Source of the DNA: SAR202 cluster bacterium
GTDB taxonomy: Bacteria > Chloroflexota > Dehalococcoidia > Lucifugimonadales > VGZR01
Reading direction: 5' to 3'
Assembly: GCA_016872515.1 (NCBI GenBank)
Contig: VGZR01000008.1
Coordinates: forward strand, 4,112 to 68,111
Length of the DNA stretch: 64,000 nt
Shown here: in pieces, positions 17,354-19,775 of the stretch
How the letters are laid out: each line of letters starts with the position of its first letter
Position numbering within the stretch: position 1 is the first letter of the stretch
Position numbers and translations under genes: made by a program
Notes under the pieces: generated by a model
The model's input: the letters and a program-made list of their open reading frames with translations, nothing else
The model's database searches: none
What the model was told of the DNA's origin: nothing

Positions 17354-17827
17354 ATGTGCCCACCCCGAATGACCAAGTCACCCATGAACATCAGGACAGC
17401 CGTGGCCATCCTCGCCTGGCTTCCCGTGCTGCTGTGGATGGCCGCCATCTTCATCATGTCCAGCTTCCCGGGCGTCGAGGTGGAGCGGAGGGCATCCAGG
17501 ATCGAGGAGTTGGTGCCGGTGGCCGGCAAGGCCGTTGTCCATCCGGCGACGTTCCATGTGGCCGTCTACGCCCTCCTCGCTGCCTTTACTTTCGTTTGGG
17601 CACGTTTCCAAAAGGGCCCCGTGCTAAGTTCCGGTTTGACCGCGGTGGTAGTCACCATCGTCTATGGCGGCACCGACGAGCTCCACCAGGCCTTCGTCCC
17701 TGGCCGCTCGTGCTCGGCGGCGGACGTCGGCTACGACGCTATGGGTGCCCTGCTCGGCGTGCTCGCCTGCTGGCTGGCTGTTCGAGCGGCGGCATGGCGG
17801 GCGCGCGCAAAGAATACCCCGCACTGA
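17354..17827 (+). CDS. VanZ-family membrane protein
   Basis: 157 aa, 4 TM segments, GGTDELHQAFVPGRSCSAADVGYDAMGA. The start may be one of the downstream ATGs (17369 or 17384). Confidence 0.7.
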   Translation: MCPPRMTKSPMNIRTAVAILAWLPVLLWMAAIFIMSSFPGVEVERRASRIEELVPVAGKAVVHPATFHVAVYALLAAFTFVWARFQKGPVLSSGLTAVVVTIVYGGTDELHQAFVPGRSCSAADVGYDAMGALLGVLACWLAVRAAAWRARAKNTPH

Positions 17828-17842
17828 AAAACCCTTGTCCTA

Positions 17843-17851
17843 TGCTATAAT
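17843..17851 (+). promoter_or_regulatory. Extended -10 element upstream of tRNA-Ala
   Basis: TGcTATAAT, ending 20 nt before the tRNA 5' end. No convincing -35. Confidence 0.4.
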
Positions 17852-17871
17852 CGGGACGAGACGGCGAGCGT

Positions 17872-17947
17872 GGGGATATAGCTCAACTGGGAGAGCACGG
17901 CGTTCGCAATGCCGGGGTTGGGGGTTCGACTCCCCCTATCTCCACCA
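17872..17947 (+). tRNA. tRNA-Ala (anticodon CGC), CCA encoded
   Basis: Hand-folded cloverleaf. Acceptor GGGGATA/TATCTCC with the G3:U70 Ala identity pair. D arm GCTC-AACTGGGA-GAGC. Anticodon arm CGGCG-TTCGCAA-TGCCG. T arm GGGGG-TTCGACT-CCCCC. Discriminator A plus CCA. Confidence 0.93.
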
Positions 17948-18002
17948 ACCTCTTCCCTCTTCCACGCCAGGCTCACCGCAATCCACCACCCGAGGGCCGT
18001 AT

Positions 18003-18230
18003 TTGCCCAACCGAGTCCTCATCTACACCCACCCGGAATGCACCTACTCCGCGGCGCTCAAGGACGACCTGAACACCGCCGGGACGAAGTACGAAGAGGT
18101 TGACCTTGCCCTGCACCCAGAGGCCTGGGCCGAGGTCGAGCAGTTCACCGGCGGAGACCGCATCACCCCTGTCATGCTCGAAGACGGCAAGGTCACCGTC
18201 GGCTACTACGGGGTTGGGTGAACCTTCTGA
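18003..18230 (+). CDS. Glutaredoxin-like small protein, candidate C-terminal U-x-x-stop selenoprotein (TGA 18219-18221 read as Sec)
   Basis: TTG 18003 with GAGGG 8 nt upstream. (M)PNRVLIYTHPECTYSAALKDDLNTAGTKYEEVDL...DRITPVMLEDGKVTVGYYGVG-TGA-ACC-TTC-TGA. Without recoding the CDS ends at 18221. Confidence 0.6.
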
Positions 18231-18233
18231 CCC

Positions 18234-18252
18234 GCGGGGCCGTCGGCCCCGC
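18234..18252 (+). promoter_or_regulatory. SECIS-like hairpin after TGA 18219
   Basis: GCGGGGCC (18234-18241), loop GUC, GGCCCCGC (18245-18252). Starts 12 nt after the TGA. No U-tract follows. Confidence 0.5.
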
Positions 18253-18277
18253 CGTAACCCAAGTCCAGGAGGACGAT

Positions 18278-18988
18278 GTGGTGAAACAAGTTACCGGCAA
18301 GGTCACCGTTGGCGAACCCGCCCCGGAGTTCACCCTGCCTGCCCTCGAAGGCAGAACGGTGCGCCTCGCAGACTACCGCGGCAAACGGCTCATTCTGTTC
18401 ATGTGGGCTTCGTGGTGAGCCTGCAGAGGCCAGTTGCCAGGTTGGCAGCAGTTCTACCAGAAGCACAGGGCCAGCGGCATCGAACTCCTCTCGGTCGCCC
18501 TGGACGCCCATGGCGCGGGCAGGGCCGAGCCATACCTGCGGCAGGCGAAGGCCGAGTTCGTGACCGTCGTGGACGAGCAGAACCTGCTGGGAGACCTCTA
18601 CGGCTTCAAGGCCATCCCCAACGGCTTCCTGATCGACGAGCAGGGCATCCTCAGGTACGGGGAACTGGGCACCTTCGACGTCCGCAAGCCAAAGACCCGA
18701 GCGCTGCTCGACCAGTGGGTCGCGGGCAAGGGTACCGGGGTGGCGCGATCAGCGGAGGCGCCCGGCAATCGCCACGCCCAGGCCAACGCCCACTTCCGTG
18801 CTGGAGAGGCTCTCTACCGCCAGGGCAAGGTGGACGAGGCCGTCGCCGAGTGGCGCAGGGCCGTCGCCCTGGAACCCGACAACTACATCATTCGTAAGCA
18901 GATTTGGGCCGTCCAGAACCCGGACAAGTTCTACGACGGCGACGTGGACTACGACTGGCAGGACGAACAACTGAAGAAGGGGTTATAG
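18278..18988 (+). CDS. TlpA/redoxin-like thiol-disulfide oxidoreductase with C-terminal TPR, candidate selenoprotein (TGA 18416-18418 read as Sec)
   Basis: Track ORFs 18218-18418 and 18434-18988 share a frame and are separated only by the TGA. Read-through gives ...RLILFMWASW-U-ACRGQLPGWQQFYQKHRASGIELLSVALD... Start GTG 18278 lies 5 nt after AGGAGG (18267-18272). Confidence 0.7.
18433..18449 (+). promoter_or_regulatory. SECIS-like hairpin after TGA 18416
   Basis: GTTGCCA (18433-18439), loop GGT, TGGCAGC (18443-18449). Seven bp including one G-U. Starts 14 nt after the TGA. Confidence 0.5.
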
Positions 18989-18989
18989 C

Positions 18990-19775
18990 GTGAAGGTCCA
19001 GGACCTGTTCAACATGACGGGCCGCGTGGCGGTCGTCACCGGCGGCGGGACCCATCTGGGCAAGGCGATGGCCGAGTCGCTGGCCGAACTGGGCGCCACC
19101 GTCGTCATCGCCAGCCGCCGCAAGGAGTTGTGCGAGGAGGTCGCCTCCGAGTTCCGCCAGCGGGGCCTGAAGTGCGAGGCGACGGGCTGCGACGTGACCG
19201 TCGAGGCCCAGGTCAACGACCTAGTGGACGCCATCGTGAAGCGCCATGGCCGCCTCGACGCCTTCATCTGCAACGCCGGCGGCAGCGTCCCCGCCGAAAA
19301 CACCCCCGACAGCTCGGTGGACGCCTTCTGGAAGACGGTCGAGATGAACGTCCTGAGCACCTTCATCTGCGTCCAGGCCGCCGCCAGGGTCATGGTCAAG
19401 CAGGGCCACGGACGCATCGTCACCGTCGGCTCCATCCACGGCTCCATGGGCACCGATAAGCGGATGTACACCCCCGGCCACAAGCGCTCGTCCATCGGCT
19501 ACTTCGCCGCCAAGGGCGGCGTCGTCAACCTGACCCGCGACCTGGCCGCAGAGCTCGGCGAGTACGGCATCACCGTCAACTGCCTCAGCCCGGGCCAGAT
19601 ACCCAAGCCGGGCGTCAACCCCGTCCTCTTGGAGCGGCTGGAGCAGCGCACGCCCCTGCGGCGCAACGGCGTCCCCGAAGACCTCAAGGGCGCCATCGCC
19701 CTCCTTGCCTCTCCGGCAGGCGCCTGGATCAGCGGCCAAGACCTGCGCGTGGACGGCGCCTGGAGCGTCTGGTAG
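18990..19775 (+). CDS. SDR-family oxidoreductase
   Basis: GRVAVVTGGGTHLGKAM (TGxxxxG) ...NAGG...YFAAKGG (YxxxK), 261 aa. Confidence 0.88.
   Translation: MKVQDLFNMTGRVAVVTGGGTHLGKAMAESLAELGATVVIASRRKELCEEVASEFRQRGLKCEATGCDVTVEAQVNDLVDAIVKRHGRLDAFICNAGGSVPAENTPDSSVDAFWKTVEMNVLSTFICVQAAARVMVKQGHGRIVTVGSIHGSMGTDKRMYTPGHKRSSIGYFAAKGGVVNLTRDLAAELGEYGITVNCLSPGQIPKPGVNPVLLERLEQRTPLRRNGVPEDLKGAIALLASPAGAWISGQDLRVDGAWSVW

What the first reader, a model, noticed from the sequence alone, without database searches (positions are those of the whole stretch)
18278..18988. TlpA-like redoxin + TPR protein with in-frame TGA exactly at the first redox Cys, and an unusual U-x-C spacing
Track ORFs 18218-18418 and 18434-18988 are in the same frame, separated only by TGA 18416-18418. 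Read through, the protein is ...GEPAPEFTLPALEGRTVRLADYRGKRLILFMWASW-U-ACRGQLPGWQQFYQKHRASGIELLSVALD... The TGA replaces the first Cys of the W-C-x-x-C motif of TlpA/ResA-type oxidoreductases. A 7-bp hairpin with a GGU loop (18433-18449) starts 14 nt downstream. There are two oddities beyond the Sec itself. First, the motif is one residue shorter than canonical (U-A-C, not U-x-x-C); this cannot be a simple indel artefact because the frame is maintained. Second, the C-terminal ~75 aa are TPR-like (AHFRAGEALYRQGKVDEAVAEWRRAVALEPDNY), and from GTG 18278 there is no signal peptide, so this would be a cytoplasmic rather than periplasmic TlpA-like protein.
Basis: partly seen in the sequence, partly recalled or inferred. 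Interest (0 to 1): 0.8.

Follow-up and report, generated by a model that had tools for sequence, protein, structure and literature searches.

The report
Selenocysteine U-x-C redoxin with TPR tail
This is a real selenocysteine-containing thiol oxidoreductase gene from a marine SAR202 bacterium, wrongly split in public annotation, but it belongs to a selenoprotein family catalogued since 2008, so it is sound rather than new.

Summary
TGA 18416-18418 joins two same-frame ORFs into one 236-aa protein (GTG 18278 to TAG 18988). It has a ResA/TlpA-type redoxin domain, one TPR and a conserved 35-aa tail.

In 81 of 81 homologous loci, nearly all from distinct Dehalococcoidia/Chloroflexota species, the same codon is TGA, inside an invariant W-[AG]-S-W-U-x-C-R-x-Q-L-P-x-W-Q. 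Both flanks are conserved as protein.

Cys homologues exist with the same one-residue spacing (C-G-C, C-T-C and others). U-x-C is therefore the family's own motif, not an artefact.

The 7-bp hairpin with a GGU loop meets all four published bacterial SECIS criteria. Synonymous codon choice supports it: the Leu codon is YTG in 81/81 Sec forms but in only 1 of 4 Cys forms.

The kind is already known. It appears as 'Prx-like (UGC-containing)' in the 2008 GOS selenoproteome and in later reviews, and NCBIfam NF041054 'WAxxUGC' is the best hit, though below its cutoff.

Less documented points:
- This is a short form without a signal peptide, always Sec in the 81 loci examined.
- GenBank truncates it to 'TPR protein'.
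- In 32 of 81 loci, a UXX-star glutaredoxin-like selenoprotein gene sits directly upstream.

No Sec machinery genes lie in the window. Function is inferred, not shown.

The parts
18278..18988 (+). Complete selenoprotein gene, 236 codons including Sec, ending at TAG 18986-18988. The start is GTG 18278, or GTG 18281.
   Evidence: Homologues start 9-14 residues before the conserved G(D/E)xAP(D/E)F.
18267..18273 (+). Shine-Dalgarno-like AGGAGGA, 4 nt before GTG 18278.
   Evidence: Read directly from the sequence. Its function is inferred.
18416..18418 (+). In-frame TGA read as selenocysteine (residue 47), the first residue of the U-A-C redox motif (18416-18424).
   Evidence: The codon is TGA in 81/81 homologous loci. 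Cys occupies this column in P0124, P0125, P0129, P0159, P0164, P0181 and others.
18433..18449 (+). Candidate bacterial SECIS: a 7-bp stem with apical loop GGU (18440-18442). It overlaps codons Q-L-P-G-W-Q.
   Evidence: Meets the four bSECIS criteria quoted in PMC13188914:
- a 3-nt loop on a 7-bp stem;
- G then G/U at the start of the loop in 81/81;
- 21 nt between the UGA and the loop;
- MFE -9.6 kcal/mol.

Pair 25-39 of the alignment is CG 71, UA 4, UG 4, with no mismatches. The Leu codon is YTG in 81/81 Sec forms, but CTA, CTC and CTT in three of four Cys forms.
18308..18703 (+). Redoxin (thioredoxin-fold, ResA/TlpA/DsbE-like) domain, residues 11-142. It includes the cis-Pro loop A-I-P-N-G.
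   Evidence: Pfam AhpC-TSA and Redoxin. The AF2 model has pLDDT 94, and helix alpha-1 begins right after the Sec position. Foldseek TM-scores (normalised by target length) to DsbE and ResA are 0.83-0.87.
18782..18883 (+). Single TPR motif, residues 169-202.
   Evidence: Pfam TPR_2, E 4.5e-8. It matches consensus TPR proteins in the PDB.
18884..18985 (+). Conserved C-terminal tail N-Y-I-I-R-K-Q-I-W-A-V-x-x-P-D-K-F-Y-x-G-D-V-D-Y-x-W-Q-x-E-Q, with no Pfam family.
   Evidence: Columns R154, K155, Q156, W158, A159, P163, F166, Y167, D172, W175 and Q176 (P0001 numbering) are invariant in alignment A1. The tail is shared by the long Cys forms P0124, P0142 and P0123.
18003..18230 (+). Neighbouring gene: a UXX-star family 2 glutaredoxin-like selenoprotein. 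Its Sec TGA is at 18219-18221, its true stop TGA at 18228-18230, and its own hairpin at 18234-18252. It is a probable operon partner.
   Evidence: NF041211 scores 113 bits against a cutoff of 100. See also the translation and the hairpin fold, z -2.8. The same gene lies directly upstream in 32 of 81 loci.

Best explanation
The region encodes one cytoplasmic 236-aa selenoprotein, not two ORFs. UGA 18416-18418 is most likely decoded as selenocysteine, directed by the hairpin 14 nt downstream acting as a bacterial SECIS for SelB.

The protein has three parts: a ResA/TlpA/DsbE-type thioredoxin-fold redoxin, a single TPR and a conserved helical tail. Its active site is U-x-C instead of C-x-x-C.

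**Shown**
- The conserved TGA, and coding conservation on both sides of it.
- Cys homologues with the same spacing.
- A hairpin that meets the published SECIS criteria.
- The fold, and the absence of a leader peptide.

**Inferred**
- Sec sits at the N-terminal cap of helix alpha-1, in the position of the attacking Cys of ResA/TlpA. It attacks a substrate disulfide or another oxidised sulfur or selenium species.
- Cys two residues later resolves the adduct, forming an intramolecular selenenylsulfide.
- The TPR and tail probably hold the substrate or partner protein.
- The UXX-star glutaredoxin-like selenoprotein encoded directly upstream is the most likely redox partner.
- The substrate is unknown.

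The gene belongs to the already catalogued 'UGC-containing Prx-like / TlpA family' selenoproteins, as a short subfamily without a signal peptide.
For: - **Conserved TGA.** It is present in 81/81 loci, inside W-[AG]-S-W-U-x-C-R-x-Q-L-P-x-W-Q.
- **Upstream coding signature.** The 35 codons before it contain no stops and show third-position variation.
- **Domain spans the TGA.** Pfam domain matches run across it.
- **Family match.** The best NCBIfam match is NF041054, the WAxxUGC motif protein, at E 8e-48.
- **Same-spacing Cys forms.** Homologues carry C-G-C, C-T-C, C-Y-C, C-I-C and C-Q-C without an indel.
- **SECIS.** All four criteria are met.
- **TGA is a normal stop here.** It ends 11 of 40 long ORFs in the window, so there is no global recoding.
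- **Structure.** The AF2 model has pLDDT 94 and pTM 0.90, with the helix starting at residue 48. The nearest solved structures are DsbE, ResA, TlpA and CcmG.
- **Neighbour.** A UXX-star gene lies upstream in 32 of 81 loci.
- **Literature.** The UGC-containing family is listed in PMC2398784, PMC9312934 and PMC13188914.
Against: - No selA, selB, selD or tRNA-Sec is present in the 64-kb window or in the 6.5-kb homologous loci. The decoding machinery is therefore assumed from the conservation pattern, not seen.
- The hairpin coincides with the conserved peptide Q-L-P-x-W-Q. Whole-structure covariation does not exceed shuffles, and in the window its energy is unremarkable.
- The closest Cys form (L083) keeps the same hairpin, so the stem is not exclusive to Sec forms.
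- The score against NF041054 is 163.5, against a cutoff of 300.
- No experiment shows Sec insertion, a selenenylsulfide, a partner or a substrate.
- Some family members have lost both redox residues (S-G-S, S-P-S, D-V-S). The scaffold can therefore have a non-redox role.
Confidence: 0.85

Rival explanations
1. The U-x-C centre handles metal rather than disulfides. It would bind or reduce copper or another soft metal, or reduce the metal-binding cysteines of a copper protein, as TlpA does for ScoI and CoxB. The UXX-star Sec would act as a second soft ligand.
For: - A CPx-type heavy-metal P1B-ATPase with two HMA domains lies upstream on the same strand in 14 of 81 loci. It is directly adjacent in L052, L057 and L061.
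- The 2026 review notes that Sec in UXX-star proteins may act as a metal ligand, and it lists a U-x-C Cu/Zn efflux transporter family.
- TlpA bound to cytochrome oxidase subunit II (4txv) is among the structural matches.
Against: - The ATPase neighbour is absent from the window and from 67 of 81 loci. In several of the 14 it is separated by unrelated genes, for example a HicAB-like pair in L070.
- No metal-binding domain was found in the protein itself.
Confidence: 0.12
2. It is a peroxidase, as the literature name 'Prx-like' suggests. Sec would be the peroxidatic residue and the Cys two residues on would be the resolving residue.
For: The best Pfam hit is AhpC/TSA. There are weak NCBIfam matches to BCP and PrxU. 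The 2008 paper filed the family under Prx-like.
Against: - The ResA, StoA, TlpA and DsbE models score far higher (74.6, 58.5, 42.4 and 37.8 bits) than BCP (25 bits).
- The flanking motif is W-A-S-W-U, the TlpA/ResA F-W-A-[ST]-W-C signature. From general knowledge of peroxiredoxins, their P-x-x-x-T-x-x-C motif is absent.
- The top structural matches are DsbE, ResA and TlpA.
Confidence: 0.1
3. The TGA is a true stop. On this reading the locus is either a decaying pseudogene or two separate genes, as GenBank annotates it ('tetratricopeptide repeat protein' starting at TTG 18434).
For: - Public annotation calls only the 184-aa C-terminal ORF (P0001).
- No Sec machinery is seen in the window.
Against: - The identical TGA at the identical codon occurs in 81/81 loci down to 42% protein identity, with no other stops or frameshifts.
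- The thioredoxin fold is split by the TGA, so neither piece would fold alone.
- Cys occupies the column in relatives.
- A second selenoprotein gene, scoring above its curated cutoff, lies next door.
Confidence: 0.02
4. TGA is reassigned to Trp or Gly in this lineage (genetic code 4 or 25). JGI's gene caller implied this when it translated the site as W.
For: The JGI products P0002 and P0127 carry W at the site.
Against: - TGA ends 11 of 40 long ORFs in the window, including tightly packed operon genes.
- The genome is 63.7% GC.
- The conserved Trp positions in this gene use TGG.
- The homologous residue is Cys, not Trp or Gly.
Confidence: 0.01

Closest known systems
[quoted passage not shown]
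   Same: - It carries the pfam00578/cd02966 redoxin domain.
- Sec is the first residue of a U-x-C motif (U-G-C in 42 of 81 relatives, U-A-C in the window).
- Many Cys homologues exist.
- It is known only from prediction.
   Different: - The published entries give only the motif, the domain and one accession. I could not retrieve the representative sequences (MDE0950781.1, MBL6689828.1), so I do not know whether they have the TPR and tail.
- The middle residue here is Ala, not Gly.
- The clade-wide use in Dehalococcoidia and the UXX-star neighbour are not mentioned in the texts I could read.
NCBIfam NF041054 'WAxxUGC_long', a ResA-like WAxxUGC motif-containing protein
   Same: - It is the best family match (E 7.8e-48).
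- It shares the W-A-x-x-U-x-C motif.
- Long relatives (P0124, P0142, P0123) match the profile out to positions 324-336 of 354, and by sequence they carry the same TPR plus I-R-K-Q-I-W-A...F-Y...W-Q tail.
   Different: - The score is 163.5 against a cutoff of 300.
- The model is 354 positions long. The window protein lacks the first ~73 profile positions, where long forms such as P0124 have a signal/TM segment and an extra N-terminal domain. It also has a much shorter linker.
- It is therefore not an equivalog.
ResA / TlpA / DsbE(CcmG) extracytoplasmic thiol-disulfide oxidoreductases (PDB 1st9, 1jfu, 3gl3, 2b1k)
   Same: It shares the fold (TM-score normalised by target length up to 0.87), the F-W-A-S-W signature before the active site, the cis-Pro loop, and the nucleophile at the N-cap of helix alpha-1.
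   Different: - Those proteins have C-x-x-C, are membrane-anchored or exported, and have no TPR.
- This one has U-x-C (a one-residue deletion), no leader, and a TPR with a conserved tail.
Sep15/Selenof (C-x-U) and the CGC 'CXC' thioredoxin variants. This comparison rests on my own knowledge and was not tested here.
   Same: A thioredoxin-fold redox centre with only one residue between the two chalcogens. This forces an 11-membered ring, and in the studied cases gives a less reducing potential than C-x-x-C.
   Different: Sep15 has the order Cys then Sec, is eukaryotic and resides in the ER. No homology beyond the fold is implied, and no redox potential is known for the present family.
CnoX/YbbN chaperedoxins (thioredoxin domain plus C-terminal TPR). 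This comparison rests on my own knowledge.
   Same: A cytoplasmic thioredoxin-fold domain fused to a C-terminal TPR region. Some members have degenerate active sites, as do the S-G-S and S-P-S members here.
   Different: - The redoxin subfamily is different (classic Trx rather than TlpA-like), and CnoX contains no Sec.
- The tail motif is absent from CnoX as far as I know.
- CnoX was not among the top 50 structural matches.

Membership tests
Bacterial selenoprotein gene (general criteria) | An in-frame UGA conserved among orthologues, with coding conservation on both sides. | tested here: met
   TGA is present in 81/81 loci. Both flanks are conserved, and there are no stops in the 35 upstream codons.
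Bacterial selenoprotein gene (general criteria) | Homologues with Cys aligned to the UGA. | tested here: met
   P0124, P0125, P0129, P0153, P0159, P0164, P0181, P0192, P0196, P0243, P0250 and P0254 carry Cys at this column.
Bacterial selenoprotein gene (general criteria) | A bSECIS hairpin: loop of 3-9 nt, stem of 4-16 bp, G in the first two loop positions, 16-37 nt from the UGA to the loop, and MFE <= -7.5 kcal/mol (PMC13188914). | tested here: met
   The hairpin has a GGU loop, a 7-bp stem, a 21-nt spacing and an MFE of -9.6 kcal/mol. The loop starts G[G/U] in 81/81. Binding to SelB was not tested.
Bacterial selenoprotein gene (general criteria) | The genome encodes selA, selB, selD and tRNA-Sec. 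| not testable with these tools
   None is present in the window or in the fetched loci. The rest of the genome was not available. Indirect support: a second selenoprotein gene (UXX-star family 2) scores above its curated cutoff next door.
UGC-containing Prx-like / TlpA-family selenoproteins (literature family) | A pfam00578/cd02966 redoxin domain with Sec in a U-G-C motif. | tested here: met
   AhpC-TSA E 2.3e-21. The motif is U-A-C in the window and U-G-C in 42 of 81 orthologues. Direct comparison with the published representatives was not possible.
NCBIfam NF041054 WAxxUGC_long (equivalog) | A whole-protein score at or above the curated cutoff of 300 bits. | tested here: not met
   The score is 163.5 bits, and only profile positions 74-201 of 354 are matched in the best stretch. 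It is related but not an equivalog.
TlpA/ResA/DsbE thiol-disulfide oxidoreductases | A thioredoxin fold with the W-C-x-x-C active site. | tested here: not met
   The fold criterion is met, but the motif is W-U-x-C, with a one-residue gap relative to WASWCGPCR of 3gl3.
TlpA/ResA/DsbE thiol-disulfide oxidoreductases | Extracytoplasmic location (signal peptide or membrane anchor). | tested here: not met
   The N-terminus has no hydrophobic segment. In-frame stops shortly upstream of the start in many homologues leave no room for a leader.
Peroxiredoxins (AhpC/BCP) | The P-x-x-x-T-x-x-C peroxidatic motif, and best matches to Prx models. | tested here: not met
   BCP scores 25 bits and PrxU 23 bits, against ResA at 75 bits. 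The motif context is W-A-S-W-U.

The most novel reading that the evidence does not exclude
The UXX-star glutaredoxin-like selenoprotein and the U-x-C redoxin-TPR protein form a dedicated two-selenoprotein cytoplasmic module in SAR202/Dehalococcoidia. The C-terminal Sec tail of the first would exchange directly with the one-residue-spaced selenenylsulfide of the second.

This would give a redox potential or a soft-metal (Cu) handling chemistry that C-x-x-C proteins cannot reach. It would also explain why Sec is retained in all 81 loci examined, none of which has switched to Cys.
Probability: 0.2. Interest if true: 0.5.

Novelty: new member of a known kind. Interest (0 to 1): 0.3.

Why it matters
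The practical value is annotation. In GenBank and most metagenome gene calls this gene is cut at the UGA and named 'tetratricopeptide repeat protein' or 'redoxin domain-containing protein'. JGI read the UGA as Trp. A curated model for the short form would correct the annotation in the 80-plus Dehalococcoidia/Chloroflexota species genomes found here, and in their many metagenomic relatives.

Biologically it adds three things:
- Selenium use looks entrenched in SAR202, an abundant deep-ocean lineage.
- Sec is invariant in the 81 loci examined, which were the best-scoring relatives retrieved.
- Two adjacent selenoprotein genes could be tested as a redox pair.

It does not change what is known about Sec decoding or about the thioredoxin fold.

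Tried and rejected
- **Sec machinery.** I looked for it in the window and the fetched loci using ARAGORN, motif regexes and tblastn with E. coli SelA/SelB/SelD written from memory. The only match was IF-2 near 55.3 kb.
- **Rfam.** A scan of 17700-19100 found only tRNA-Ala.
- **Terminators and promoters.** No terminator lies between the genes. One promoter-like site lies at 17824-17851, before the tRNA.
- **Whole-structure covariation of the hairpin.** It did not exceed shuffles, because the stem is nearly invariant and overlaps conserved codons. I therefore rely on synonymous sites and on a small Cys-form control of four loci.
- **De novo neighbour clustering.** It was noisy because of spurious high-GC ORFs. 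Only the UXX-star gene, an SDR, a dehydrogenase and a P-type ATPase recurred.
- **Haft & Tolstoy 2025.** This is the source of the UXX-star family 2, but the paper is not held.
- **Literature searches.** 'WAxxUGC' returned nothing. 'SAR202' with 'selenocysteine' returned nothing relevant.
- **Rejected explanations.** Pseudogene, two separate genes and code-4 recoding are all rejected, as set out under the rival explanations.

Full report
**1. The observation**

The sequence is as described. ORFs 18218-18418 and 18434-18988 share a frame and are separated by a single TGA at 18416-18418. Read-through gives ...GEPAPEFTLPALEGRTVRLADYRGKRLILFMWASW-U-ACRGQLPGWQQFYQKH...

The most plausible start is GTG 18278 (or 18281), 4-7 nt after AGGAGGA at 18267-18273. 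That gives a 236-residue product ending at TAG 18986-18988.

The hairpin is at 18433-18449. It has a 7-bp stem including one U.G pair, a GGU loop at 18440-18442, and starts 14 nt after the TGA.

Pfam AhpC-TSA (E 2.3e-21) and Redoxin span the TGA, and TPR_2 matches residues 169-202.

**2. Is the TGA decoded?**

A protein search with the read-through sequence returned hundreds of relatives. Almost all are C-terminal fragments beginning just after the equivalent of the TGA. The one apparently full-length hit, P0002, has W at the site, but its DNA reads TGA, so it was a code-4 gene call.

I fetched 80 loci from the GTDB species-representative genome collection, all Dehalococcoidia/Chloroflexota MAGs. 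With the window and one metagenome contig (L001), this gives 81 loci carrying the site.
- All 81 have TGA at the same codon, embedded in W-[AG]-S-W-TGA-x-C-R-x-Q-L-P-x-W-Q.
- The middle residue is G in 42, A in 31, V in 4, S in 2, D in 1 and R in 1.
- The C-terminal part is as little as 42% identical across these loci.
- The 35 codons upstream of the TGA contain no stop in 80 loci.
- Those codons vary mainly at third positions, with column entropy of 0.69, 0.58 and 1.37 bits for positions 1, 2 and 3.

TGA is otherwise a normal stop in this genome, ending 11 of 40 long ORFs in a window of 63.7% GC. A pseudogene, two independent genes and a reassigned codon are therefore all untenable.

**3. Cys homologues and the spacing**

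An exhaustive HMMER search of 1.84 billion representatives found uninterrupted relatives.
- Many have Cys at the Sec column with the same one-residue spacing: WASWCGC (P0124), WASWCTC (P0125, P0129), WASWCYC, FASWCIC, WAPWCQC, WASWCSC, WATWCTC, WGSWCHC and WGSWCRC.
- They align without an indel.
- Other members have lost one or both redox residues: S-G-S, S-P-S, S-D-S, D-V-S, D-S-C and C-G-S.

The C-x-C spacing is thus the family's own state. Against solved C-x-x-C proteins it shows as a one-residue gap: WASWCA-CR aligned to WASWCGPCR of DsbE 3gl3.

**4. The hairpin**

It meets the four constraints of the published bacterial SECIS model (text read):
- a 3-nt loop on a 7-bp stem;
- G followed by G or U at the start of the loop, in 81/81;
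- 21 nt between the UGA and the loop;
- an MFE of -9.6 kcal/mol.

There are caveats. In the window alone the fold is not unusual for this composition (z -1.4). The stem also coincides with the conserved peptide Q-L-P-x-W-Q, so whole-structure covariation does not beat shuffles.

Evidence for RNA-level selection comes from synonymous sites.
- The Leu codon is CTG or TTG in 81/81 Sec forms.
- The pair formed by its first base and the third base of the downstream Gln codon is C-G in 71, U-A in 4 and U-G in 4 distinct sequences, with no C-A mismatch.
- Among four Cys-form genes whose DNA I could fetch, the Leu codons are CTA, CTC, CTT and TTG, and three of the four lose the stem.
- The closest Cys form (L083, C-T-C) keeps the hairpin, which fits a recent Sec-to-Cys change.

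**5. What the protein is**

After the WAxxUGC model, the best NCBIfam matches are ResA, StoA, TlpA and DsbE. Peroxiredoxin models score far lower.

An AlphaFold2 model of the 60%-identical P0002 is confident (pLDDT 94, pTM 0.90). It places the Sec position immediately before helix alpha-1, which spans residues 48-62. It also shows a five-helix C-terminal region.

The Foldseek top matches are DsbE 3gl3, ResA, Geobacter thioredoxin-family proteins, TlpA and CcmG. They align over about 140-150 residues, so the redoxin domain only.

The C-terminal third is one TPR plus a tail: N-Y-I-I-R-K-Q-I-W-A-V-x-x-P-D-K-F-Y-x-G-D-V-D-Y-x-W-Q-x-E-Q. The tail has many invariant residues and no Pfam family. The same tail is present in long, signal-peptide-bearing Cys forms such as P0124 and P0142.

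The window protein and its 80 relatives have no leader. In many of them an in-frame stop lies a few codons before the start. A cytoplasmic location follows as an inference.

**6. Context**

The gene directly upstream (18003-18230) is a UXX-star family 2 glutaredoxin-like selenoprotein. It scores 113 bits against NF041211, above the cutoff of 100. It ends G-V-G-U-T-F-stop, and its own strong 8-bp hairpin lies 12 nt after its UGA.

The same gene sits directly upstream, on the same strand, in 32 of 81 loci and in L001. It is the only frequently recurring neighbour.

An SDR gene starts 2 nt after the stop in the window, and a homologue lies just downstream in about six other loci. A CPx-type P1B ATPase lies upstream in 14 loci.

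No sel genes or tRNA-Sec are in the window.

**7. Mechanism**

Shown:
- a conserved, decoded UGA;
- a SECIS-like hairpin;
- a ResA/TlpA-like fold with U-x-C at the helix N-cap;
- the absence of a leader peptide.

Inferred:
- Sec is the attacking nucleophile.
- Cys at +2 resolves the adduct to an intramolecular selenenylsulfide.
- The TPR and tail bind the client or partner.
- The UXX-star protein is the likely partner.

From general knowledge of C-x-C centres (CGC thioredoxin variants, and Sep15 with C-x-U), such a centre should be more oxidising and more strained than C-x-x-C. The longer Se-S bond may relieve that strain. None of this was measured. Metal handling and peroxidase activity are lower-probability rival functions.

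**8. Comparison with what is known**

The 2008 GOS selenoproteome lists 'Prx-like (UGC-containing)', with pfam00578, motif UGC, 46 Sec sequences and 855 Cys homologues. [quoted passage not shown]

NCBIfam NF041054 'WAxxUGC_long' is the best hit, but at 163.5 bits against a cutoff of 300. It models a longer, 354-position form.

The kind is therefore known. The window gene is a member of a short subfamily without a leader that current models and GenBank annotation miss: P0001 is named 'tetratricopeptide repeat protein'.

**9. Verdict**

Novelty is low: a new member or subfamily of a known kind.

The residual points of interest are the invariant use of Sec in the 81 loci examined, the pairing with a second selenoprotein gene, and the systematic mis-annotation.

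Noticed in passing
window 18003-18252 (+): A UXX-star family 2 glutaredoxin-like selenoprotein gene (TTG 18003, C-T-Y-S motif). Its Sec TGA is at 18219-18221, three codons before the real stop TGA at 18228-18230. A perfect 8-bp GC stem with a GUC loop lies at 18234-18252, probably its SECIS, in the intergenic spacer.
   Followed up: partly
L014 2983-2991 (CBDCXW010000001.1): The motif reads TGA GGG TGA, which is U-G-U. The resolving Cys codon is also TGA. This is the only such case among the 81 loci, and I could not tell whether it is a sequencing error or a double-Sec variant.
   Followed up: no
L052, L057, L061 (adjacent); L059, L066, L069, L070, L071, L074, L076-L078, L080, L081 (further upstream): A CPx-type heavy-metal P1B-ATPase with two N-terminal HMA domains lies upstream on the same strand as the U-x-C redoxin in 14 of 81 loci. 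This hints at a link to copper handling in one clade. In L070 a HicAB-like pair lies between the two genes.
   Followed up: partly
proteins P0122, P0216, P0224, P0234, P0123, P0142: Some family members keep the fold, the TPR and the tail but have lost the redox residues (S-G-S, S-P-S, S-D-S, D-V-S, D-S-C, C-G-S). This suggests a non-catalytic role, such as binding or chaperoning, for part of the family.
   Followed up: no
L001 199-909 (JGI Ga0611942_0289662) and P0127: JGI gene calls translate the Sec TGA as Trp. These contigs were apparently called with genetic code 4 because of the read-through ORF, which is a source of false 'W' residues in protein databases.
   Followed up: partly
L083 1501-2398: This is the closest Cys-form relative (C-T-C motif, 57% identical in the redoxin domain). 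It keeps the CAG-TTG-CCA-GGT-TGG-CAG hairpin, and its gene is called as two overlapping ORFs (redoxin, then TPR). It may be a recent Sec-to-Cys conversion with a frameshift or assembly error.
   Followed up: no
window 17872-17947 (+) and 18990-19775 (+): A tRNA-Ala(CGC) lies 56 nt upstream of the UXX-star gene, with the same arrangement in L003 and L024. A short-chain dehydrogenase gene starts 2 nt after the selenoprotein's stop codon, so the genes are probably transcribed together.
   Followed up: partly
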